Below, piece after piece: positions 9,437 to 32,706 of a stretch of DNA of 32,848 nucleotides. Source of the stretch: Peduovirus P24A7b; sequence record NC_049390.1. One strand, 5' to 3'. The notes beneath the pieces were generated by a model. It was not told the origin of the DNA, did not search any database, and saw nothing but the letters and a program-made list of their open reading frames with translations. Each line of letters begins with the position of its first letter. Position 1 is the first letter of the stretch. A program made the translations under genes and the position numbers.

Positions 9437-10222
9437 TTATGAGTGATTTTTATTTGATGCTTTGTATTCTACAACCTTCTTATTGGCGTAAAGGAATTTT
9501 GTATATGACAGGAATATAACCAGACCTGAAATGAAATAGATGAGGGATATTATTAATAATGCTTTTTTTTGGCTGTTATTATCTTTAATTTCCTGACTTA
9601 ACCATTCCGAGTCCTCCTCGTTTAGCCGTAAGAGCTTATTGCAGGCGATCTCAGGAAGTGTGTCTTTTATAAATATGTTTCGTAGCCTCTTGCAATCGGC
9701 AAGGCTATAAGTTTTATTGAATTCAACTGTTTTATTGTTGAAGGATAAAAGAACTTTGTCACTATAAACATAGTACATCATATTTTTATATGGTATGCCT
9801 ATGGCATCTCTTACTATAGCGGATTGTTTGTTGTGTATATAACATGCGAAGAGAATATAAATAATGCTGGACAGAATTACAATTATTGTTTTAATTATGT
9901 GTGGTGGTTTTGTTATGTCACCCCAGAAGCGAGTAAGAAAAAAATACGATGTTTTTAGTTTTCCATCAATCAGCCCCTGCTGTATCATTCTCACATCTTC
10001 GATGCCTGATACATTGATTCCGTTAATTATTTTAAATAGTTGAATGTCGCGCCATTTTTTGTCGAGCATTTTTAACTTTCTGTCTGAATACTCAAAATTG
10101 AAATGATGTGCAATAAACCTCATAAGATTACTTTTACCAAAGGTAATAAATGTTAATGCTATTAATAAAAATAGATACAAAGAGATAAACCACCACGCAT
10201 TAGTCACATTATCACTGAACAT
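9437..10222 (-). CDS. Moron: hypothetical polytopic membrane protein (3 predicted TM helices), function unknown
   Basis: 261-aa ORF on the strand opposite the flanking late genes; visibly AT-rich; AGGAG Shine-Dalgarno 6 nt upstream of the ATG; hydrophobic segments near aa 9-29, 112-132 and 224-246; occupies the S-V position (orf30 in P2). Confidence 0.8.
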   Translation of the reverse strand: MFSDNVTNAWWFISLYLFLLIALTFITFGKSNLMRFIAHHFNFEYSDRKLKMLDKKWRDIQLFKIINGINVSGIEDVRMIQQGLIDGKLKTSYFFLTRFWGDITKPPHIIKTIIVILSSIIYILFACYIHNKQSAIVRDAIGIPYKNMMYYVYSDKVLLSFNNKTVEFNKTYSLADCKRLRNIFIKDTLPEIACNKLLRLNEEDSEWLSQEIKDNNSQKKALLIISLIYFISGLVIFLSYTKFLYANKKVVEYKASNKNHS

Positions 10223-10239
10223 TACGCTCTCCTCGAATG

Positions 10240-10258
10240 TTGTATGGTCGTTCTACAA
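10240..10258. promoter_or_regulatory. Dyad TTGTA-N9-TACAA in the V upstream region (candidate late-promoter activator site or operator)
   Basis: Perfect 5-bp inverted repeat in the 83-bp gap between the divergent moron and V; resembles, but is not identical in spacing to, the TGT-N12-ACA Ogr box as I recall it (here TGT-N11-ACA). Confidence 0.3.
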
Positions 10259-10305
10259 ATGAATCCAGATAGCATAACTTTTATATATTGTGCAATCTCA
10301 CACGC

Positions 10306-10941
10306 ATGAACACTCTCGCAAATATTCAGGAACTCGCGCGCGCACTGCGCAACATGATTCGTACCGGCCTTGTCGTCGAAACCAACCTTAAAGCCGGTCG
10401 CTGCCGTGTGCAGACCGGTGGCATGTGCACTGACTGGCTTCAGTGGCTGACCCATCGTGCCGGACGTTCGCGCACATGGTGGGCACCTTCCGTGGGGGAA
10501 CAGGTGCTGATTCTGGCTGTGGGCGGTGAACTCGACACGGCGTTCGTTCTGCCGGGGATTTATTCCGGCGATAACCCCGCGCCGTCTGCGTCGGCGGATG
10601 CCCTGCATATCCGTTTCCCTGACGGGGCGGTGATTGAGTATGAACCCGAAACCAGTGCACTCACGGTAAGCGGAATTAAAACGGCCAGCGTGACGGCTTC
10701 TGATTCTGTTACTGCCACGGTGCCGGTGGTCATGGTGAAAGCATCAACCCGCGTCACCCTGGACACACCGGAGGTGGTTTGCACCAACAGGCTGATTACC
10801 GGCACGCTGGAAGTGCAGAAGGGCGGGACGATGCGCGGCAACATTGAACACACCGGCGGTGAACTCTCATCAAACGGTAAGGTACTGCATACCCATAAAC
10901 ACCCCGGCGACAGCGGCGGCACAACCGGGAGCCCTCTATGA
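10306..10941 (+). CDS. V: Baseplate spike/assembly protein V
   Basis: Trimmed to ATG at 10306 (MNTLANIQELARALRNMIRTGLV...), 211 aa as for P2 gpV. Confidence 0.93.
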   Translation: MNTLANIQELARALRNMIRTGLVVETNLKAGRCRVQTGGMCTDWLQWLTHRAGRSRTWWAPSVGEQVLILAVGGELDTAFVLPGIYSGDNPAPSASADALHIRFPDGAVIEYEPETSALTVSGIKTASVTASDSVTATVPVVMVKASTRVTLDTPEVVCTNRLITGTLEVQKGGTMRGNIEHTGGELSSNGKVLHTHKHPGDSGGTTGSPL

Positions 10942-15356: not shown

Positions 15357-15934
15357 TGGCTTTCAGAATGAGTGCAGAAGCACAAACTATCCGCGTTTTC
15401 AATTTACTTGATGGAACCAATGAATTTATTGGCGAAAGTGATGCATATATTCCACCGTATACTGGCCTGCCTGCAAACAGTACAGATATTGCACCACCTG
15501 ATATTCCTGCTGGTTATGCAGCCGTTTTCAATGCAGATGAAATGAAATGGGAGTTGATGGAAGATCATCGCGGAAAGACTGTCTACGAAACGAAAACGGG
15601 AGCAGCCATTTATATTTCTGAACTTGGCGCATTACCTCCAGACGTGACAGCCATTTCCCCGGATGGGGATTATCAGAAATGGAACGGAAATGCGTGGGTG
15701 AATGATGAGAATGCAGAGCGTGATGCACTTGTCAGAGCGGCGGAGTCTCAGAAGAAAGAGCAGATTGCATATGCCGGTGAAATTATTGCCACGCTGCAGG
15801 ATGCTGTCGATTTAGATATGGCTACCGAGGAAGAAAAGTTAAGTCTGACACACTGGAAAAAATACCGTGTGCTACTGAATCGCGTTCAGCCGGAAGATGC
15901 TCCGGATATAGAATGGCCGGAAATGCCGCGATAA
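15356..15934 (+). CDS. G: Tail fibre assembly chaperone G
   Basis: 192-aa ORF directly after H with ATGG overlap; conserved tail-fibre-assembly N-terminus; the variable C-terminus co-varies with the H tip. Confidence 0.88.
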
Positions 15935-16190
15935 ATTGTATTAGCTCGGATGTGAGTTTACACATCTATAGCACAGAGTAAAACCTAATCTGGCTGTCCG
16001 CTCTGTGCTAGGAGCGGACATTACCAAGTAACATGCCTTAATCAAAAGGAAATGGTTAATATATGCCATCATTGTTTGAAAAATACGCAGTCATATATTG
16101 CTATGAACATTGTTGGTGCATTAACTTGCTTAAGAAACTACAATTAAGCATCATAAAATACTCTTATGACTTTTAAGGCTCTACCGTATC

Positions 16191-16598
16191 ATGGCTAAGC
16201 GGATTCCTGGTGTTAGTAAAGAATGGTCTAACTATCTCCTTTGTTTATTATTACATATGTCTTTACCTCTCTTACCTTTGGGGTTCGAGACACTTGTGCG
16301 TTCCGATCACTTGCCATCAATACAAACATTAAACATTACAGCGGCGTTTTATGCGATCTCGATAGGGCTTTCTTCTAAGAACGTTGCTATGTTTGGTTTG
16401 GGTATATTCGTGAGCATTTGTTTCTCTGTTGTATTTGGGATTGTTTCTTCAAATCCTAATTCTGATCCTAATCTTAATTTTAATGATAACTTGTATTTTT
16501 ATTCTCCAATTGCGTGTATTGTTGCTATATTTGTTATACATGCATGTGAACGATATAACAGGCATGTTGCTGATTGTACACCATTTTTTGAGTTTTAA
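16191..16598 (+). CDS. Hotspot cargo gene 1: small polytopic membrane protein (135 aa), function unknown
   Basis: AT-rich ORF at the G-FI (P2 Z/fun) position; 3-4 hydrophobic helices; Asn/Pro-rich loop NPNSDPNLNFNDN; weak Shine-Dalgarno, so the exact start is uncertain (alternative ATG at 16255). Confidence 0.65.
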   Translation: MAKRIPGVSKEWSNYLLCLLLHMSLPLLPLGFETLVRSDHLPSIQTLNITAAFYAISIGLSSKNVAMFGLGIFVSICFSVVFGIVSSNPNSDPNLNFNDNLYFYSPIACIVAIFVIHACERYNRHVADCTPFFEF

Positions 16599-16607
16599 GG
16601 GGGTGCT

Positions 16608-17099
16608 ATGATTGATACAATTATCCCAGTAATACTATCAATTCTCCCGGCAATACTATCTATATTTAGCTTAGTAGCTGTTTCTATAGGTGCATTAGTA
16701 TCTATCAGGTCTGTTAAAAAAAGACGTGAAATAGAAGTTCAGCTTTTTAATGAGATAATAAATCAACAAATTAAACAAACTAAAAGCAACCGTAAAAAGG
16801 ATCTTGAAAATAGTGTTAATGAAATAGAAAATGAACTCAAGAGAAGAGTTGATATTTTGAATAAAATGCAAAAAGATCTAGAAGCAGTTTCAGAGAACAA
16901 ATACTATTTTGATAAAGCAAAATATCTTCGAAATGTCAAGTATGGAGAGTATTTATTAGAGATAAATGAAGCTGTGAATAATATTGATAATAAAAACAAA
17001 CACTTACTAAATAACGCTCTTAATCAAAGCTCTGAGATTGGAAAAGTAAGATATCTTGGAAGAATAACAAAGGAAGCACTGGAAAAAACAGTAGGCTGA
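16608..17099 (+). CDS. Hotspot cargo gene 2: membrane-anchored charged/coiled-coil protein (163 aa), function unknown
   Basis: Strong Shine-Dalgarno (AAGGGGG) 7 nt upstream of the ATG; 9-nt gap from gene 1; N-terminal hydrophobic helix (aa 4-32) then a K/E/N-rich heptad-like region; AT-rich. Confidence 0.8.
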   Translation: MIDTIIPVILSILPAILSIFSLVAVSIGALVSIRSVKKRREIEVQLFNEIINQQIKQTKSNRKKDLENSVNEIENELKRRVDILNKMQKDLEAVSENKYYFDKAKYLRNVKYGEYLLEINEAVNNIDNKNKHLLNNALNQSSEIGKVRYLGRITKEALEKTVG

Positions 17100-17125
17100 T
17101 CATTTTTTCCGCTCGTAATAGATAA

Positions 17126-17156
17126 ACTCAAAGGTTCTTTTTGAGAGCCTTTGAGT
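17126..17156 (+). terminator. Hairpin downstream of the cargo operon
   Basis: ACTCAAAGG / CCTTTGAGT 9-bp perfect stem with a 13-nt loop, 27 nt after the stop at 17099; only a short T-run follows. Confidence 0.4.
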
Positions 17157-17343
17157 TTCAATCTTACCAATATTACTCACCATTTCTTTAGCAGCAATTT
17201 GGGGACTATAACTTCTACTTCTTGCTGTGAGTTCAACCGATGGATACAACACATTGGCTAAAACGCCCTGTGGGTGATTCATAGTCTAGCGTTTGGACTC
17301 CGTAAATTCACAGTTGGAAACTGAGCGAGTACAAATCAAGGCC

Positions 17344-17370
17344 GGCGGGCTGATTGCCCGCCTTTTCTTT
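17344..17370 (+). terminator. Intrinsic terminator insulating the hotspot from the FI late operon
   Basis: GGCGGGC-tgatt-GCCCGCC stem-loop followed by TTTTCTTT. Confidence 0.7.
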
Positions 17371-17470
17371 ACCGGTGGTTGTGCTGTTGATTAGCCAACC
17401 GGGACAAATAGCCTGACATCTCCGGCACAACTGAAAATACCACTCACCCATTAACCACGGAGTTAAACGG

Positions 17471-18661
17471 ATGAGTGACTATCATCACGGCGTGCAGGTG
17501 CTGGAGATTAACGACGGCACCCGCGTCATTTCCACCGTATCCACGGCCATTGTCGGCATGGTCTGCACAGCCAGCGATGCGGATGCGGAAACCTTCCCCC
17601 TCAATAAACCGGTGCTGATTACCAATGTGCAGAGCGCAATTGCAAAGGCTGGTAAAAAAGGCACGCTGGCGGCGTCGTTGCAGGCCATCGCTGACCAGTC
17701 AAAACCGGTCACCGTTGTCGTGCGTGTTGAAGACGGCACAGGCGACGACGAAGAAACGAAACTCGCGCAGACCGTTTCCAATATCATCGGCACCACCGAC
17801 GAAAACGGTCAGTACACCGGACTGAAAGCCCTGATGGGGGCTGAGTCGGTTACCGGCGTTAAACCGCGCATTCTTGGTGTGCCGGGGCTGGACACCAAAG
17901 AGGTTGCCGTCGCACTGGCATCGGTATGCCAGGAACTGAATGCATTCGGGTATATCAGCGCATGGGGCTGTAAAACCATTTCCGAGGTGAAAGCCTACCG
18001 CCAGAATTTCAGCCAGCGTGAGCTGATGGTTATCTGGCCGGATTTCCTCGCATGGGATACGGTCACCAGTACCACCGCCACCGCGTATGCCACCGCCCGT
18101 GCGCTGGGGCTGCGCGCTAAAATCGACCAGGAGCAGGGCTGGCATAAAACGCTGTCCAACGTCGGGGTAAACGGTGTTACCGGCATCAGTGCATCTGTAT
18201 TCTGGGATTTGCAGAAGTCTGGCACTGATGCTGACCTGCTGAACGAGGCAGGCGTCACAACGCTGGTTCGCCGCGACGGTTTCCGTTTCTGGGGTAACCG
18301 TACCTGCTCCGATGACCCACTGTTCCTCTTTGAAAGCTACACACGCACTGCGCAGGTACTGGCCGACACGATGGCTGAGGCGCACATGTGGGCTATTGAT
18401 AAGCCCATCACCGCAACGCTGATTCGCGACATCATTGACGGCATCAATGCCAAATTCCGCGAACTGAAAAACAACGGTTATATCGTGGATGGCACATGCT
18501 GGTTCAGTGAAGAATCCAACGATGCGGAAACCCTCAAGGCCGGAAAACTGTATATCGACTACGACTATACCCCGGTGCCTCCCCTCGAAAACCTGACCCT
18601 GCGCCAGCGTATTACTTCAAGATACCTGGCAAGTCTGGTCACCTCGGTTAACAGCAATTAA
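17471..18661 (+). CDS. FI: Tail sheath protein
   Basis: 396 aa, MSDYHHGVQVLEINDGTRVISTVSTAIVGMV...; matches P2 gpFI. Confidence 0.95.
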   Translation: MSDYHHGVQVLEINDGTRVISTVSTAIVGMVCTASDADAETFPLNKPVLITNVQSAIAKAGKKGTLAASLQAIADQSKPVTVVVRVEDGTGDDEETKLAQTVSNIIGTTDENGQYTGLKALMGAESVTGVKPRILGVPGLDTKEVAVALASVCQELNAFGYISAWGCKTISEVKAYRQNFSQRELMVIWPDFLAWDTVTSTTATAYATARALGLRAKIDQEQGWHKTLSNVGVNGVTGISASVFWDLQKSGTDADLLNEAGVTTLVRRDGFRFWGNRTCSDDPLFLFESYTRTAQVLADTMAEAHMWAIDKPITATLIRDIIDGINAKFRELKNNGYIVDGTCWFSEESNDAETLKAGKLYIDYDYTPVPPLENLTLRQRITSRYLASLVTSVNSN

Positions 18662-27411: not shown

Positions 27412-27635
27412 TGCCGGACAACGTAGATTTTATTCAGGAACAACAGGCTGAATTACTGGAGCGTCAGATTAACGCGGCAAGGGTAAAACATTGCGGTGCT
27501 TCTGCGCTGGTTTGCGAAGAGTGTGACGCGCCAATACCTGCTGCCCGTCGTGCGGCTTATCCGTCAGCCACGCGTTGTGTTTCCTGTCAGTCAGTCTTTG
27601 AAGCAAAAAACAAACATTACCGGAGAACGGCATGA
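27411..27635 (+). CDS. TraR/DksA-family C4 zinc-finger protein (P2 orf82 position)
   Basis: 74 aa with C-x2-C-x17-C-x2-C (CEECDAP...CVSCQ), typical of TraR/DksA-like proteins. Confidence 0.75.
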   Translation: MPDNVDFIQEQQAELLERQINAARVKHCGASALVCEECDAPIPAARRAAYPSATRCVSCQSVFEAKNKHYRRTA

Positions 27636-27907
27636 GTATTCGTATCGAAATTGACGAACGTTATGTCGTTACCAGTGACAGCTTTCAGTTTATTCTCCAC
27701 GAGAAAAAGAGAGCGGAAAGCGGTAAAAATGCCGGTCAGGAATGGCTGGCGGTGGTTGGTTATTACCCGAAATTAAGCCAGCTCGTTTCCGGCCTGATGC
27801 ATCACGATATTCTGACCGGAAGCGCAAAATCTTTTGCCGATTTAAACGCGCAGGTTGAGCAACTCAGCAAGCGTTGTTCAGAGGCTTTTGGCTCACATGG
27901 CCGTTAA
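27632..27907 (+). CDS. Hypothetical early protein (P2 orf83 position)
   Basis: 91-aa ORF directly upstream of and overlapping A. Confidence 0.7.
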   Translation: MSIRIEIDERYVVTSDSFQFILHEKKRAESGKNAGQEWLAVVGYYPKLSQLVSGLMHHDILTGSAKSFADLNAQVEQLSKRCSEAFGSHGR

Positions 27908-30182
27908 AGCCTCAGGGCGTTTTGTCCCTCCGTCAGCATTTGCTGCAGGCACCGGTAAGGCGTTTACTGGTGCTTATGCATGGAACGCGCCACGCGAGGC
28001 TGTCGGGCGCGAAAGACCTCTTACACGTGACGAGATGCGTCAGGTGCAAGGTGTTTTATCCACGATTAACCGCCTGCCTTACTTTTTGCGCTCGCTGTTT
28101 ACTTCACGCTATGACTACATCCGGCGCAATAAAAGCCCGGTGCACGGGTTTTATTTCCTCACATCCACTTTTCAGCGTCGTTTATGGCCGCGCATTGAGC
28201 GTGTGAATCAGCGCCATGAAATGAACACCGACGCGTCGTTGCTGTTTCTGGCAGAGCGTGACCACTATGCGCGCCTGCCGGGAATGAATGACAAGGAGCT
28301 GAAAAAGTTTGCTGCCCGTATCTCATCGCAGCTTTTCATGATGTATGAGGAACTCAGCGATGCCTGGGTGGATGCGCATGGCGAAAAAGAATCGCTGTTT
28401 ACGGATGAGGCGCAGGCTCACCTCTATGGTCATGTTGCTGGCGCTGCACGTGCTTTCAATATTTCCCCGCTCTACTGGAAAAAATACCGTAAAGGGCAGA
28501 TGACCACGAGGCAGGCATATTCTGCCATTGCCCGCCTGTTTAACGATGAGTGGTGGACTCATCAGCTTAAAGGCCAGCGTATGCGCTGGCATGAGGCGTT
28601 ACTGATTGCTGTCGGGGAGGTGAATAAAGACCGTTCTCCTTATGCCAGTAAACATGCCATTCGTGATGTGCGTGCACGCCGCCAGGCAAATCTGGAATTT
28701 CTTAAATCGTGTGACCTTGAAAACAGGGAAACCGGCGAGCGCATCGACCTTATCAGTAAGGTGATGGGCAGTATTTCTAATCCTGAAATTCGCCGGATGG
28801 AGCTGATGAACACCATTGCCGGTATTGAGCGTTACGCCGCCGCAGAGGGTGATGTGGGGATGTTTATCACGCTGACCACGCCGTCAAAGTATCACCCGAC
28901 ACGTCAGGTCGGAAAAGGCGAAAGTAAAACCGTCCAGCTTAATCACGGCTGGAATGATGAGGCATTTAATCCAAAGGATGCGCAGCGTTATCTCTGCCGT
29001 ATCTGGAGCCTGATGCGCACGGCATTCAAGGATAATGATTTACAGGCCTACGGTTTGCGTGTTGTTGAACCACACCACGACGGAACGCCGCACTGGCATA
29101 TGATGCTTTTTTGTAATCCACGCCAGCGTAACCAGATTATTGAAATCATGCGTCGCTATGCGCTCAAAGAGGATGGCGACGAAAGAGGAGCCGCGCGAAA
29201 CCGTTTTCAGGCAAAACACCTTAACCGGGGCGGTGCTGCGGGATATATCGCGAAATACATCTCAAAAAACATCGACGGCTATGCACTGGATGGTCAGCTC
29301 GATAATGATACCGGTAGGCCGCTGAAAGACACAGCTGCTGCTGTTACCGCATGGGCGTCAACGTGGCGCATTCCGCAATTTAAAACGGTTGGTCTGCCGA
29401 CAATGGGGGCTTACCGTGAACTACGCAAATTGCCTCGCGGCGTCAGCATTGCTGATGAGTTTGACGAGCGCGTCGAGGCTGCACGCGCCGCTGCAGACAG
29501 TGGTGATTTTGCGTTGTATATCAGCGCGCAGGGCGGGGCAAATGTCCCGCGCGATTGCCAGACTGTCAGGGTCGCCCGTAGCCCGTCGGATGACGTTAAC
29601 GAGTACGAGGAAGAAGTCGAGAGAGTGGTCGGCATTTACGCGCCGCATCTCGGCGCGCGTCATATTCATATCACCAGAACGACGGACTGGCGCATTGTTC
29701 CGAAAGTGCCGGTCGTTGAGCCTTTGACTTTAAAAAGCGGCATCGCCGCGCCTCGGAGTCCTGTCAATAACTGTGGAAAGCTCACCGGTGGTGATACTTC
29801 GTTACCGGCTCCCACACCTTCTGAGCACGCCGCAGCCGTGCTTAATCTGGTTGATGACGGAGTTATTGAATGGAATGAACCGGAGGTCGTGAGGGCGCTC
29901 AGGGGCGCATTAAAACACGACCTGCGAACGCCAAACCGTCAGCAGAGAAACGGAAGCCCGTTAAAACTACATGAAATTGCACCATCGGCCAGACTGACCC
30001 GGTCGGAAAGAATGCAAATTACCCGTATCCGCGTTGACCTTGCTCAGAACTGTATCAGGCCGCAGCGATGGGAGTTTGAGGCGCTGGCGCGTGGCGCGAC
30101 CGTAAATTATGACGGAAAAAAATTCACGTATCCGGTCGCTGATGAGTGGCCGGGATTCTCAACAGTAATGGAGTGGAAATGA
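27897..30182 (+). CDS. A: Rolling-circle replication initiator A
   Basis: Trimmed to ATG at 27897 (MAVKASGRFVPPSAFAAGTGK...), 761 aa as for P2 gpA; contains the twin-tyrosine motif GYIAKYISK (about 29244-29270). Confidence 0.95.
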   Translation: MAVKASGRFVPPSAFAAGTGKAFTGAYAWNAPREAVGRERPLTRDEMRQVQGVLSTINRLPYFLRSLFTSRYDYIRRNKSPVHGFYFLTSTFQRRLWPRIERVNQRHEMNTDASLLFLAERDHYARLPGMNDKELKKFAARISSQLFMMYEELSDAWVDAHGEKESLFTDEAQAHLYGHVAGAARAFNISPLYWKKYRKGQMTTRQAYSAIARLFNDEWWTHQLKGQRMRWHEALLIAVGEVNKDRSPYASKHAIRDVRARRQANLEFLKSCDLENRETGERIDLISKVMGSISNPEIRRMELMNTIAGIERYAAAEGDVGMFITLTTPSKYHPTRQVGKGESKTVQLNHGWNDEAFNPKDAQRYLCRIWSLMRTAFKDNDLQAYGLRVVEPHHDGTPHWHMMLFCNPRQRNQIIEIMRRYALKEDGDERGAARNRFQAKHLNRGGAAGYIAKYISKNIDGYALDGQLDNDTGRPLKDTAAAVTAWASTWRIPQFKTVGLPTMGAYRELRKLPRGVSIADEFDERVEAARAAADSGDFALYISAQGGANVPRDCQTVRVARSPSDDVNEYEEEVERVVGIYAPHLGARHIHITRTTDWRIVPKVPVVEPLTLKSGIAAPRSPVNNCGKLTGGDTSLPAPTPSEHAAAVLNLVDDGVIEWNEPEVVRALRGALKHDLRTPNRQQRNGSPLKLHEIAPSARLTRSERMQITRIRVDLAQNCIRPQRWEFEALARGATVNYDGKKFTYPVADEWPGFSTVMEWK

Positions 30183-30634
30183 TGGCAAAAATTCACGAGG
30201 TAAAGCTGCACGCCAAATATTTTGACCTTGTGCTGGAAGGAAAGAAACGCGCAGAGTTTCGGAAAAATGACCGTAATTATGAGCGCGGGGACACGTTGAT
30301 TTTGCATGAATGGGTACAGGGTGTGTATACGGGGCGAAAGGTTGAAGCCCGGATAACAGATGTTACTGACCTGTCAGACTGGCTGGAAGATTATGTCTTG
30401 CTAAGTATTGAGCTGCTTAATACAGGCGCATATGAGATTGTGAACTGGAAAGAACTTAGTGAGCGTGGTCTGGTATTCAGAATTAATCATGAAATTATGC
30501 ATCAGCTCGGCCTTTCTGTTATGTATGAACCAGAGACGGGGATGTCTGGCGGGGCAATGGTTGCCACGGATGGAGCATGGAACTATTCAGATGAACAGAT
30601 GGAGCGTGCACAGCAAAACGGGTGGCTTGGATAA
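30179..30634 (+). CDS. ASCH/DUF3850-like domain protein with a C-terminal extension (about 151 aa)
   Basis: N-terminal about 75 aa (MAKIHEVKLHAKYFDLVLEGKKRAEFRKNDRNYERGDTLILHEW...) carries the ASCH-type G-x-K-x-x-E-x-R motif; start overlaps the A stop (ATGATG, start at 30179 or 30182). Confidence 0.7.
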   Translation: MMAKIHEVKLHAKYFDLVLEGKKRAEFRKNDRNYERGDTLILHEWVQGVYTGRKVEARITDVTDLSDWLEDYVLLSIELLNTGAYEIVNWKELSERGLVFRINHEIMHQLGLSVMYEPETGMSGGAMVATDGAWNYSDEQMERAQQNGWLG

Positions 30635-30840
30635 TGCACAGAATACCAGGCGAGATACCGCAACATAAAACTAAAAATATCAAGCTGATGGCTATTGTTC
30701 ACCGTCTACAGCAGATTATGGTTAACGAAAATCTGACGCCTGACGAGCTGGTCGGGTGTGCCGAAATAGTCCGGGATAATTACGGGCGGTTTAACCATAT
30801 CGGTCAATCCAGAGTTATGCCACCACCACGCAGACGATAG
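30634..30840 (+). CDS. Small hypothetical protein (68 aa), translationally coupled to the ASCH-like gene
   Basis: TAATG stop/start overlap at 30632-30636; basic Pro/Arg-rich C-terminus. Confidence 0.45.
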   Translation: MHRIPGEIPQHKTKNIKLMAIVHRLQQIMVNENLTPDELVGCAEIVRDNYGRFNHIGQSRVMPPPRRR

Positions 30841-30964
30841 AGAACGCCGCCAGTCGTGAAACTTGTTTTCAGGGCTGGCGGGGTTGAACAACGAGCGAAG
30901 CGAGGCGTTAGTTGACAGTAATATTTTTACTGCGTTGGTGCTGGTTTTTGACGGTTGAAAGGAG

Positions 30965-30981
30965 TTAGCTCGGAGAGCTAA
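30965..30981. promoter_or_regulatory. Palindrome TTAGCTC-gga-GAGCTAA upstream of cargo gene 31070
   Basis: Perfect 7-bp inverted repeat about 90 bp upstream of the ATG at 31070; a GCTAACA direct repeat at 30983 and 31023. Confidence 0.3.
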
Positions 30982-31069
30982 AGCTAACAACTTACAAATA
31001 TTCAAAAGTAAGCTTCCTGTTGCTAACATAAGGTCGATTTTTTATGTGGATGATGCAAAAAGGATAGCT

Positions 31070-31801
31070 ATGGATACTGTAATCGCTTTTCTATCACTCG
31101 CTTTTTTCGTTGCTTTTTTCATCGGGTTAATCAAACCATCACTGGTGCGGATGCCAAACCGTAAACGTGCAAGTGCGGTTTATCTCGGAGGAGGTTTTGT
31201 ATTGAGCATAATTGGTTCAATACTCTATCCAACAGAAAAAAGCCAGCCAGTTGCTAAAACTGAAACATCAACCGTTGCAGAACACCAAGTCCAAAAAACA
31301 TTCGAATATGGTGGAAAAACACTCAAGGAATATCGGAACGAGCCAAAGAAAACTCGACACGATATTGTAAATAGTTACATTGATTTTAAGGAAGTGCCAG
31401 TCACCGCATCAGATGCATTTTATGCCTGCATGAGTGAATATACTTTTACCAAAGATGATGAGTTGAAACTCGGTGATGTTCTTGGATGGTGCTTTAATGA
31501 TTATGAAAAAGATCCGCAATCACTAAACAATAAAATCAACCTTGATACATTTCAGAGTAATTTTAGTGGTTGGGATGGTTCTTATCGACCATTGGAAAAG
31601 TTAATTAAAGAGAATATGAACGATGATTCATCTTATAAACATGTGTCAACAGTGTATCATTTAATCCTGAATAAAGACCCTCACGCCATTGTGAAAACCA
31701 CATTTCGCGGTACTAATGCCTATGGTGGTGTCGTGAAGCAAACAATAGCAGCGCGTGTTAATGTGAAAACGGGTGAAATAGTTTCGATACTAAATAATTG
31801 A
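31070..31801 (+). CDS. Hotspot cargo: two-TM membrane-anchored protein with about 190-aa soluble domain, function unknown
   Basis: Trimmed from the GTG at 31046 to the ATG at 31070 (AAGGA Shine-Dalgarno); hydrophobic helices at aa 3-22 and 36-52; AT-rich; at the A-to-cos position (tin/old in P2). Confidence 0.75.
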   Translation: MDTVIAFLSLAFFVAFFIGLIKPSLVRMPNRKRASAVYLGGGFVLSIIGSILYPTEKSQPVAKTETSTVAEHQVQKTFEYGGKTLKEYRNEPKKTRHDIVNSYIDFKEVPVTASDAFYACMSEYTFTKDDELKLGDVLGWCFNDYEKDPQSLNNKINLDTFQSNFSGWDGSYRPLEKLIKENMNDDSSYKHVSTVYHLILNKDPHAIVKTTFRGTNAYGGVVKQTIAARVNVKTGEIVSILNN

Positions 31802-32007: not shown

Positions 32008-32706
32008 ATGAAGTATTGTGGGATAGCTTTAATAATATGTCTTTGCTTGTTTATGTTCGCATTTGGTTTTGTGTTGGGTGGAGTTCAATGGGCATGGGGC
32101 GAGAGTGAAAATAATAGCAAGGTCGCATTTTGGACAATGCTAGGAGGGTGGGTGTCAGGATTGGCTACTCTCGCGGCTGTGGGGGTTTCATTATTTACAA
32201 GTTATTATGCGATGATTTCAGGCAAAGAGAAAGTTGACGTTGTTTTTGCGCCTATATATACGACCTCTACGGCAAAAAAAGCAGATAAGCTTTCATTGCA
32301 AGATTTGGCTAATATCAAAGTGACAAATTTACACGGTGTGAAGTGTACTATTGTTAATGTTTATATGAAGTTTAGTGATGTTAAGGAACCATTAAAGATT
32401 AATAACCTTAAACAGGGAGGTAAGCCAATACCTTATACGCTATGTAATATAAGCGATATGTGGGAGTTTGCATTTGGGATGGAGTCAAACCCTAGATTGA
32501 GATTTCTATTGTCAGGGTTGAAATATGAAGGTCGACCATCCTTTAAAAAAGGGCATTTCATCATTGAAACAGCAATGAAACAATACAAGTTAAAGATGCG
32601 GAAAGACTTTCTCTCAATATTACAGAGTGAGTATCAAAGCATAGAGGAAGAATCTAAACGTAACTCAGTTAAATCAGGGTGGTCACGGTATAAAAAACTG
32701 AATTAA
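32008..32706 (+). CDS. Hotspot cargo: two-TM membrane-anchored protein with about 165-aa soluble domain, function unknown
   Basis: ATG at 32008 with AAGGA Shine-Dalgarno; hydrophobic helices at aa 5-25 and 40-64; very AT-rich; last gene before the cos end. Confidence 0.75.
   Translation: MKYCGIALIICLCLFMFAFGFVLGGVQWAWGESENNSKVAFWTMLGGWVSGLATLAAVGVSLFTSYYAMISGKEKVDVVFAPIYTTSTAKKADKLSLQDLANIKVTNLHGVKCTIVNVYMKFSDVKEPLKINNLKQGGKPIPYTLCNISDMWEFAFGMESNPRLRFLLSGLKYEGRPSFKKGHFIIETAMKQYKLKMRKDFLSILQSEYQSIEEESKRNSVKSGWSRYKKLN

What the first reader, a model, noticed from the sequence alone, without database searches (positions are those of the whole stretch)
30179..30840. ASCH/DUF3850-like protein with C-terminal extension plus a coupled small ORF directly after A
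The first gene after A has an ASCH-like N-terminal domain (motif G-K-K-R-A-E-F-R fitting G-x-K-x-x-E-x-R) followed by about 75 extra residues. Its stop overlaps the start of a 68-aa basic ORF (TAATG). ASCH/PUA-like domains bind RNA or modified nucleic acid and recur in defence and counter-defence contexts. The tight coupling suggests a two-component unit. P2 carries a small ORF at this position; whether it is ASCH-like I cannot confirm from memory.
Basis: partly seen in the sequence, partly recalled or inferred. Interest (0 to 1): 0.55.

Follow-up and report, generated by a model that had tools for sequence, protein, structure and literature searches.

The report
P2 Orf91-type ASCH gene pair
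Right after the replication gene of this P2-like prophage lie two overlapping, truly coding genes: a small ASCH-domain protein carrying a widespread phage add-on domain (DUF7415), and a 68-residue basic partner; both are already catalogued as hypothetical proteins, related phages do without them, and their function is untested.

The parts
30170..30182 (+). Junction of gene A and gene 1: GGAG (30170-30173), ATG at 30179 overlapping the gpA stop TGA (30180-30182), and a second ATG at 30182
   Evidence: Read directly from the sequence. RefSeq starts the CDS at 30182.
30179..30634 (+). Gene 1: 151-aa acidic protein (pI 5.1), the full-length homologue of P2 orf91, with ASCH/DUF3850 and DUF7415 domains
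   Evidence: phrog_1812 matches over the full length (E 3e-82). Pfam finds both domains. The sequence is 100% identical to a RefSeq 'DUF3850 domain-containing protein' in E. coli AR_0081. The AlphaFold2 model has pLDDT 89.7.
30191..30409 (+). Minimal ASCH/DUF3850 beta-barrel (aa 5-77) with G21-x-K23-x-x-E26-x-R28 and R28-K29-N30-D31
30437..30616 (+). DUF7415 domain (Pfam aa 87-129; modelled as helix-helix-strand-strand-helix over aa 90-146); acidic, net charge -6
   Evidence: PF24187 E 1.4e-13. pLDDT is 94-97 when modelled with an 83-sequence alignment. Net charge is at most 0 in all 49 family members tested, mean -3.7. The profile finds no PDB sequence.
30620..30636 (+). Junction of gene 1 and gene 2: GGGTGG (Shine-Dalgarno-like, within the conserved G-W codons of the C-terminal N-G-W motif) followed by TAATG, the stop/start overlap
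   Evidence: Read directly from the sequence. The same GGGTGG with an ATGA overlap is found in the lineage about 55% identical.
30634..30840 (+). Gene 2: 68-aa basic protein with the conserved core KLMAIVHRLQQIMVNENLTPDELVGCAEIVRDN (aa 17-49) and the C-terminal tail PPPRRR
   Evidence: phrog_11386 E 2.9e-41. pN/pS is 0.16-0.26 in frame. Alignments show the conserved core and tail. The family has 233 clusters and no Pfam domain.
30843..30911 (+). Adjacent conserved structured element: a 19-pair imperfect hairpin (30843-30861 with 30867-30885), then GTTGAACAACGAGC-N-GCGAGGCGTTAG. Similarity between phages ends at 30911. Its link to the two genes is uncertain.
   Evidence: Breakpoints of similarity, extracted copies, covariation and a fold of -35.2 kcal/mol with z -4.7. 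It is also present in 186 and PsP3, which lack gene 1.

Best explanation
This is the complete form of the P2 orf91 locus. It is a dispensable two-gene accessory module at the 3' end of the early (replication) operon of a P2-like prophage. Shown: gene 1 encodes a minimal ASCH/PUA-like barrel joined to the acidic DUF7415 domain. Gene 2 encodes a small basic helical protein. Both are real genes, joined to gene A and to each other by overlapping stop and start codons. Inferred: ribosomes pass from A to gene 1 to gene 2, so the three proteins are made together early in lytic growth. Gene 2's conserved core docks on DUF7415. The ASCH barrel is a non-catalytic head that binds a base or nucleic acid, because it lacks the C-terminal third of the ASCH profile that carries catalytic residues in YqfB and ZmASCH. 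DUF7415 is an interchangeable adaptor that places different small effector domains in the replication or nucleotide-metabolism setting. The module therefore modulates handling of replication-associated nucleic acid and is not essential.
For: Identity: Pfam, PHROG, PDB sequence and fold matches agree. Orthology: 97% identity to P2 Orf91 over aa 1-75, in the same position after A. Coding status of gene 2. Coupling: the overlaps and the GGGTGG embedded in codons are conserved across lineages. The 186 record documents translational coupling into gene A in the same operon type. Partnership of DUF7415 and gene 2: 71 of 75 loci with full-length gene 1 carry gene 2 directly downstream, and the five IMG/VR loci with only ASCH aa 1-75/80, like P2 itself, lack both DUF7415 and gene 2. 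In L118/L120, a stand-alone 78-aa DUF7415 gene after gpA is again accompanied by a gene-2 relative (E 1e-12 to 2e-16). P0050 fuses a gene-2-like N-terminus (E 8e-8 and 2e-8), a ClpX-like zinc finger and DUF7415. The charges are complementary. Replication context: 44 of 80 DUF7415 loci have the gene directly abutting gpA. The partner domain is ASCH, the P2 Orf83-type DUF5405, an N-terminal segment that resembles a MazG-like domain by eye (Pfam found no match for it), or nothing; an Rv2179c-like exonuclease fusion lies near gpA but not adjacent to it. Gene-2 relatives carrying a ClpX zinc finger sit directly after a Toprim primase-helicase. Dispensability: P2 lacks DUF7415 and gene 2, 186 lacks all three parts, and PsP3 has gene 2 only.
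Against: No experiment bears on any step. PsP3 carries gene 2 with no DUF7415 anywhere in its genome, so a complex cannot be obligate. DUF7415 is also common in T4-like and T5-like phages that have no gpA (759 records), so it does not dock specifically on gpA. The 80-locus sample was ranked by similarity to this window and is biased towards P2-like phages. Gene 1 is acidic overall (pI 5.1; ASCH part net -2), which is unusual for a nucleic-acid binder. The motif glutamate E26 is replaced in some orthologues. The Rosetta fusion rests on one 3.5-kb metagenomic contig. The locus lies inside the gpA-gpQ interval known as a defence hotspot. One relative fuses DUF7415 to a Lar-like restriction-alleviation domain, barely above the Pfam cut-off.
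Confidence: 0.45

Rival explanations
1. Counter-defence (or defence) module. The early-made pair neutralises a host or prophage immunity system. The ASCH barrel would bind or sequester a modified base or a nucleotide signal, and DUF7415 would be a shared adaptor of anti-defence effectors.
For: The pair lies in the gpA-gpQ interval described as a hotspot of antiviral systems, and the table of that study lists it among the hotspot arrangements. DUF7415 is fused elsewhere to enzymes of kinds used in counter-defence: a dATP/dGTP pyrophosphohydrolase, an Rv2179c-like exonuclease and a Lar-like restriction-alleviation domain. PUA-like readers occur in modification-dependent defence systems. The module is variably present.
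Against: PADLOC gives no hit. The papers read assign it no defence or anti-defence function. It lies on the operon side of the conserved hairpin where cargo swapping begins, on the early lytic strand, and is coupled to gene A rather than having its own promoter. The Lar match is marginal (28.9 bits against a cut-off of 28.6).
Confidence: 0.25
2. Two unrelated genes that are merely packed together. Gene 2 is an independent small cassette, and its overlap with gene 1 reflects genome compaction rather than joint function.
For: PsP3 has gene 2 (81% identical) flanked by two copies of the hairpin element and has no ASCH or DUF7415. L080-L083 keep gene 1 after deletion of gene 2. Overlapping stops and starts are common throughout this operon.
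Against: DUF7415 and gene 2 are lost together in P2-type loci. They co-occur again where DUF7415 is a stand-alone gene. P0050 fuses them. The ribosome-binding sequence for gene 2 is embedded in conserved gene 1 codons in both lineages.
Confidence: 0.2
3. Gene 1 is an enzyme: an N4-acylcytidine amidohydrolase like YqfB/EOLA1, or a ribonuclease like ZmASCH, acting in nucleotide salvage or RNA turnover for the phage.
Against: Only positions 2-67 of the 103-position ASCH profile are matched. The barrel ends at about aa 80, so the C-terminal segment is missing. From my own knowledge of those papers, that segment carries YqfB Glu74 and ZmASCH Ser128. The motif position that is Thr in YqfB is Glu here. 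Identity to YqfB is 11-14%. The closest relative, 3iuw, is an uncharacterised 83-aa structural-genomics protein.
Confidence: 0.08

Closest known systems
Bacteriophage P2 Orf91 (NP_046796, DUF3850 domain-containing protein; function listed as unknown)
   Same: It is the first gene after A, overlaps the stop of A, and is 97% identical over aa 1-75, the ASCH barrel.
   Different: P2 Orf91 has 109 aa. After about aa 75 it reads into unrelated sequence next to the tin-old cassette. It lacks DUF7415, gene 2 and the hairpin element. The window carries the complete form.
PDB 3iuw, 'activating signal cointegrator' from Enterococcus faecalis (83 aa, structural genomics)
   Different: It is a single-domain bacterial protein without DUF7415 or a partner gene, and its function is also unknown.
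YqfB / EOLA1 ASCH-type N4-acetylcytidine amidohydrolases and the ZmASCH ribonuclease
   Same: They share the PUA-like ASCH fold and the N-terminal G-x-K motif region.
   Different: The window protein lacks the C-terminal third of the ASCH profile and is 11-14% identical to YqfB and 9-12% to ZmASCH. The catalytic residues are not all present (own knowledge of those enzymes).
Phage T5 T5p104 and other stand-alone or fused DUF7415 proteins of T4-like and T5-like phages
   Same: They share the DUF7415 domain. T5p104 has two tandem copies (E 3e-33), and its record already notes similarity to L-413C orf91.
   Different: They have no ASCH domain, no gene-2 relative and no gpA neighbour. All are uncharacterised.
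ParB-CTPase-DUF3850 fusion proteins of prophages (bioRxiv 10.1101/2025.10.10.680097)
   Same: DUF3850 is used as an add-on domain in phage proteins that bind DNA or nucleotides. phrog_986 'RNA-binding protein' matches aa 1-85.
   Different: Their partner domain is a ParB CTPase and their operon partner is parA. Here the partner domain is DUF7415 and the neighbours are gpA and gene 2.

Membership tests
ASCH / DUF3850 (Pfam PF04266 / PF12961, PUA-like clan) | Profile match above the curated gathering score | tested here: met
   DUF3850 scores 65.1 bits (cut-off 22.9) and ASCH 43 bits (cut-off 21.2).
ASCH / DUF3850 (Pfam PF04266 / PF12961, PUA-like clan) | PUA-like beta-barrel fold | tested here: met
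ASCH / DUF3850 (Pfam PF04266 / PF12961, PUA-like clan) | N-terminal G-x-K-x-x-E-x-R motif (the family description is from my own knowledge) | tested here: met
   G21, K23, E26 and R28 are present. K23 and R28 are invariant among eight orthologues, but E26 is Leu in two of them.
YqfB-type N4-acylcytidine amidohydrolase | Catalytic Lys/Thr/Glu set, including a Glu on the C-terminal helical segment (residue identities from own knowledge) | tested here: not met
   The ASCH profile is matched only at positions 2-67 of 103, and the barrel ends at aa 80. The motif position equivalent to the Thr is Glu here. Identity to YqfB is 11-14%.
DUF7415 (Pfam PF24187) | Profile match above the gathering score; conserved G-L-x-x-R-I-N-x-E-I-L-H-P-L-G-L and G-x-S-x-G motifs | tested here: met
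   The score is 51.2 bits (cut-off 27). N103 and G111 are invariant, and G97, L98, I102, H108, L112 and S123 match the nearly invariant columns (this protein has Q109 and M121 where the family has nearly invariant P and G) among 83 sequences.
P2 orf91 orthologue | First gene downstream of gpA in the early operon, with sequence identity to P2 Orf91 | tested here: met
   The asch profile hits P2 30283-30642 with E 9.5e-38.
Known anti-phage defence or anti-defence systems (PADLOC-DB) | Match to a model of a known or candidate system | tested here: not met
   Gene 1 has only a 12.6-bit match (E 0.024) and gene 2 has none. Anti-defence libraries were not available.
Translationally coupled operon pair | Overlapping stop/start, with the ribosome-binding site inside the upstream gene | tested here: met
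   ATGA lies at 30179-30182. TAATG lies at 30632-36 with GGGTGG at 30620-25, and this arrangement is conserved in a lineage about 55% identical. Actual coupling of translation is not testable with these tools.
Physically interacting protein pair (Rosetta-stone criterion) | The two components occur fused in one polypeptide elsewhere | tested here: met
   In P0050, aa 1-57 resemble gene 2 (E 8e-8 and 2e-8) and aa 118-155 are DUF7415. This is a single metagenomic contig. The interaction itself is not tested.

The most novel reading that the evidence does not exclude
DUF7415 together with the gene-2 family forms a previously unrecognised plug-in adaptor system of phage replication modules. DUF7415 would let P2-like, T4-like and T5-like phages attach interchangeable small effector domains to a common replication-associated or host partner. 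Those domains include an ASCH reader, an Orf83-type DUF5405, a dNTP pyrophosphohydrolase, a 3'-5' exonuclease and a Lar-like zinc ribbon. The gene-2 protein would bridge to that partner. Its relatives carry a ClpX-type zinc finger, and its own tail is a conserved basic PPPRRR, so the partner could be ClpX. Alongside this, the conserved RNA hairpin that ends the module would be the recurring junction at which cassettes are exchanged at the right end of Peduoviridae genomes.
Probability: 0.2. Interest if true: 0.6.

Novelty: new member of a known kind. Interest (0 to 1): 0.35.

Why it matters
P2 is a classical model phage, yet orf91 is still listed as 'unknown'. This work shows that the reference P2 gene is a truncated remnant and that the complete locus is a two-gene module. 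That gives a concrete hypothesis to test: an ASCH head, a DUF7415 adaptor and a small partner. It also points to isolates that carry the full module. DUF7415 occurs in hundreds of T4-like, T5-like and P2-like phages with no function assigned. Its repeated fusion to small enzymes, and its position beside replication initiators, is the first contextual clue to its role. The practical value is modest: the genes are already annotated, related phages do without them, and no defence or anti-defence role is supported. The adjacent hairpin may be of more general interest, because the mechanism that swaps defence cargo in the P2 hotspot is stated to be unknown.

Tried and rejected
(1) Defence annotation: PADLOC and NCBIfam gave nothing for either gene or for the two downstream genes.
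(2) Known RNA family for the downstream element: Rfam gave only a chance hit.
(3) Intrinsic terminator after gene 2: none was found by the scan, and no U-run follows the hairpin. In 186 the annotated terminator t95b lies downstream of the element.
(4) HExxH metalloprotease reading of 'NHEIMH' in DUF7415: rejected because the first His is not conserved in the family.
(5) DUF7415 as a nucleic-acid-binding winged-helix-like domain, suggested by its helix-helix-hairpin layout: disfavoured because the domain is acidic throughout the family.
(7) Word-index protein searches with the domain alone returned only close E. coli fragments, many of them chimeras from decayed prophages.
(8) The species-level genome collection gave only 7 loci.
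(9) Wphi 'gp92' as the partner gene: rejected. The Wphi record has seven single-base insertions that split both genes, and gp92 is a piece of DUF7415.
(10) The remark that orf91 is 'an essential protein' is unreferenced and hard to reconcile with its absence from 186. It is also absent, at megablast sensitivity, from about 1000 E. coli genomes that match the gpA 3' end.
(11) The classic papers on the P2 variable region (Odegrip 2006; Nilsson 2004) could not be read.
Full report
WHAT THE WINDOW IS. The window is a complete P2-like (Peduovirus) genome in mature orientation. It starts with the P2 cohesive end GGCGAGGCGGGGAAAGCAC. Over the 1.2-kb stretch compared (29900-31100) it is 100% identical to a prophage beside pflA in E. 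coli AR_0081. The finding lies at the end of the early operon, directly after replication gene A (27855-30182).

THE OBSERVATION. It is confirmed. Gene A stops at TGA 30180-30182. ATG codons at 30179 and 30182 overlap that stop, and GGAG lies at 30170-30173. The ORF ends at TAA 30632-30634 and has 151 aa; the RefSeq version has 150 aa. The next ORF starts at ATG 30634-30636, inside TAATG, and ends at 30840. It has 68 aa and pI 10.4.

GENE 1. Pfam finds DUF3850 (aa 5-77, E 6.6e-18), ASCH (aa 9-74, E 7.8e-11, profile positions 2-67 of 103) and DUF7415 (aa 87-129, E 1.4e-13). phrog_1812 matches the whole protein (E 3e-82). The only solved relative by sequence is the 83-aa E. faecalis protein 3iuw (E 1.3e-13).

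An AlphaFold2 model built on an 83-sequence alignment reaches pLDDT 89.7. It shows a barrel over aa 5-80 and a helix-helix-strand-strand-helix domain over aa 90-146. A first model built on eight sequences left the C-terminal domain unresolved.

DUF7415. The domain found no solved relative, either by profile search or in the fold-search lists. It is acidic throughout the family: mean net charge is -3.7 and it is never positive in 49 members.

RELATION TO P2. Nucleotide similarity to reference P2 stops at window position 30402, about aa 75. P2 Orf91 (109 aa) keeps the ASCH barrel and then reads into unrelated sequence next to the tin-old cassette. HMM scans of whole genomes give this picture:
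- P2 has ASCH only.
- 186 has none of the three parts.
- PsP3 has gene 2 only.
- The window has all three.

So the window carries the complete form, and every part is dispensable for a P2-type life cycle. An unreferenced methods remark calls orf91 essential. Another paper lists its function as unknown. The Wphi record splits both genes through seven single-base insertions.

In 5426 complete E. coli genomes, the following counts match at megablast sensitivity, which misses divergent versions:
- the gpA 3' end (within the 1.2-kb query 29900-31100): 1385 genomes;
- the ASCH part: 380 genomes;
- the DUF7415 part: 351 genomes;
- gene 2: 375 genomes.

GENE 2. It is a real gene. Compared with nine relatives from a lineage whose gene 1 is about 55% identical, pN/pS is 0.16-0.26 in its own frame with pS 0.6-0.8. 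In the other two frames pN/pS is 0.7-3.5. It matches phrog_11386 over its full length. Its family has 233 clusters of 67-81 aa from Escherichia, Salmonella, Enterobacter, Citrobacter, Klebsiella and related genera. All are 'hypothetical' and none has a Pfam domain. Among phage records it occurs in 32, all from Escherichia, Yersinia or Salmonella phages (those examined are Peduoviridae). The conserved parts are the core KLMA[IV]V.RLQ.IM[VI]NENLTP.EL[VI]GCA..VRDN and a C-terminal PPRR[RP]. A variable linker lies between them. The tail is conserved at the protein level, because hairpin copies that do not follow gene 2 lack the coding motif upstream.

ARE THE TWO GENES A UNIT? Evidence for:
- Of 75 IMG/VR loci with a full-length gene 1 after gpA, 71 have gene 2 directly downstream. 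The four exceptions are deletions that keep its start or its last codons.
- The five loci with only ASCH aa 1-75/80 lack both DUF7415 and gene 2.
- In the divergent lineage the overlap is ATGA instead of TAATG. The same GGGTGG precedes it, formed by the conserved G-W codons near the end of gene 1.
- In L118/L120, gpA is followed by a stand-alone 78-aa DUF7415 gene, and a gene-2 relative follows within 0.2-0.6 kb. In L118 a separate ORF carrying a G-x-K-x-x-E-x-R motif lies between them; it looks ASCH-like by eye, but Pfam gave no match.
- One protein, P0050, combines a gene-2-like N-terminus (E 8e-8 by BLASTP, 2e-8 by HMM), a ClpX-like zinc finger and a C-terminal DUF7415.
- Shorter relatives, with the gene-2-like core plus a true ClpX-type zinc finger (39 bits, cut-off 27), lie directly after a Toprim primase-helicase in other P2-like contigs. 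P0050 does too.

Evidence against:
- PsP3 keeps gene 2 (81% identical) with no DUF7415 in its genome.
- The fusion is known from a single 3.5-kb contig.

CONTEXT OF DUF7415. An exhaustive profile search found 184 cluster representatives. Of the 143 scanned, most are stand-alone or have unassigned extensions. A few are fused to a dATP/dGTP pyrophosphohydrolase, an Rv2179c-like exonuclease, thymidylate kinase or ASCH. The domain occurs in 759 phage records, mostly T4-like Klebsiella phages and T5-like phages. T5p104 has two copies.

In the 80 IMG/VR loci most similar to the window's domain, 44 have the DUF7415 gene directly abutting gpA: 32 downstream and 12 upstream. In the upstream cases the domain is fused to DUF5405, the family of P2 Orf83. 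This sample is biased towards P2-like phages. The presence of the domain in phages without gpA means it cannot be a gpA-specific docking domain.

DEFENCE OR COUNTER-DEFENCE? No PADLOC model matches. Rousset et al. 2022 define the hotspot as everything between gpA and gpQ. Their table lists 'DUF3850/ASCH + hypothetical + hypothetical + hypothetical' with the accessions of this window's proteins, but reports no test of them. A 2026 survey found almost no anti-defence genes in P2-like prophages and does not mention this gene. A marginal DUF7415-Lar fusion and the enzyme fusions keep the counter-defence reading open.

THE ADJACENT ELEMENT. Directly after gene 2 lies a conserved 69-nt element (30843-30911).
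- Similarity between the window and about 40 loci ends within 30911-30915, exactly after GTTAG. More than 20 unrelated sequences follow.
- The element is 84-87% identical in the lineage whose flanking genes are 65-67% identical.
- Its 19-pair hairpin is supported by covariation: 91.9% of cells are paired against 33-55% in slid controls. Six pairs show compensatory changes, and 0 of 500 shuffles reach the observed score (RNAalifold agrees).
- Many pairs are G-U, so the structure works only on the + strand. The fold is -35.2 kcal/mol with z -4.7.
- No Rfam family matches.
- It occurs in 65 phage records, including 186, PsP3, Erwinia EtG and Klebsiella phages, and in 518 E. coli genomes.
- In 186 it lies between orf97 and the annotated terminator t95b.
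- In PsP3 two copies flank gene 2. In L025, L027, L037 and L046 two copies flank an orf97-like gene.

The element is therefore independent of gene 1 and marks junctions between cassettes at the right end of these genomes.

VERDICT. The module is real, conserved and already annotated as hypothetical. Its most likely role is as a dispensable accessory of the early replication operon, in which gene 2 partners with DUF7415. A counter-defence role remains the main rival. Function is untested throughout.

Noticed in passing
window 30843-30911: A conserved 69-nt structured element directly follows gene 2: a 19-pair hairpin with compensatory changes and many G-U pairs, then an invariant tail ending in GTTAG. 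Similarity between P2-like phages stops exactly after GTTAG, with more than 20 different downstream sequences. Copies separate gene cassettes in 186, PsP3 and several IMG/VR loci. It occurs in 65 phage records and 518 of 5426 E. coli genomes. It has no Rfam family and is not mentioned in the hotspot papers read. It may be an mRNA 3' or processing element, or the recombination junction of the gpA-gpQ hotspot.
   Followed up: partly
window 31070-31801: The first cargo gene after the hairpin (243 aa, hydrophobic N-terminal stretch, phrog_3403, no Pfam or PADLOC hit) is 79% identical to phage 186 Orf97. The 186 record says that expressing Orf97 from a plasmid blocks 186 infection, so this gene is a likely superinfection-exclusion gene. 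In 186 and in L025/L027/L037/L046 a hairpin copy follows it; in this window none does.
   Followed up: partly
window 32008-32706: The second cargo gene of the hotspot has 232 aa, a hydrophobic N-terminus and a match to phrog_16957. Pfam, NCBIfam and PADLOC give no significant hit. Its function is unknown.
   Followed up: partly
window 27632-27907 (orf83 homologue); loci L129-L135, L147, L150, L153, L174, L175: The gene just upstream of A (DUF5405, P2 Orf83 family) has no DUF7415 here. In another lineage of P2-like phages the same DUF5405 protein carries a C-terminal DUF7415 and overlaps the start of gpA. The adaptor domain therefore moves between the two small genes that flank gpA.
   Followed up: partly
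loci L199-L201 and L093 (P0050): Relatives of the 68-aa protein carry a true ClpX-type C4 zinc finger, and P0050 also carries DUF7415. They sit directly after a Toprim primase-helicase in P2-like contigs that lack gpA. With the conserved basic PPPRRR tail of the window protein, this hints at a link to ClpX. That link is an own-knowledge lead and was not tested.
   Followed up: partly
locus L002 (phage Wphi NC_005056, 28508-29150): Relative to the window, the Wphi record has seven single-base insertions across these two genes. Its annotated orf91 (93 aa) and orf92 (64 aa) are therefore fragments of gene 1, and the small gene is unannotated. This is probably sequencing error in the 2003 record.
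   Followed up: yes
window 15934-17471 (ORFs 16191-16598 and 16608-17099) and 9437-10608 (minus-strand ORFs): At the position of the second P2 variable region (Z/fun) lie two ORFs of 135 and 163 aa with no Pfam or PADLOC hit. Two minus-strand ORFs (261 and 128 aa) lie at the position of P2 orf30, also without hits.
   Followed up: partly
proteins P0014, P0017, P0035, P0038, P0040 (E. coli genomes): Several database 'homologues' of gene 1 are chimeras in which part of gene 1 is joined in frame to Cox, tail or other P2 proteins. They look like deletion scars of decaying P2-like prophages, not real domain architectures.
   Followed up: no
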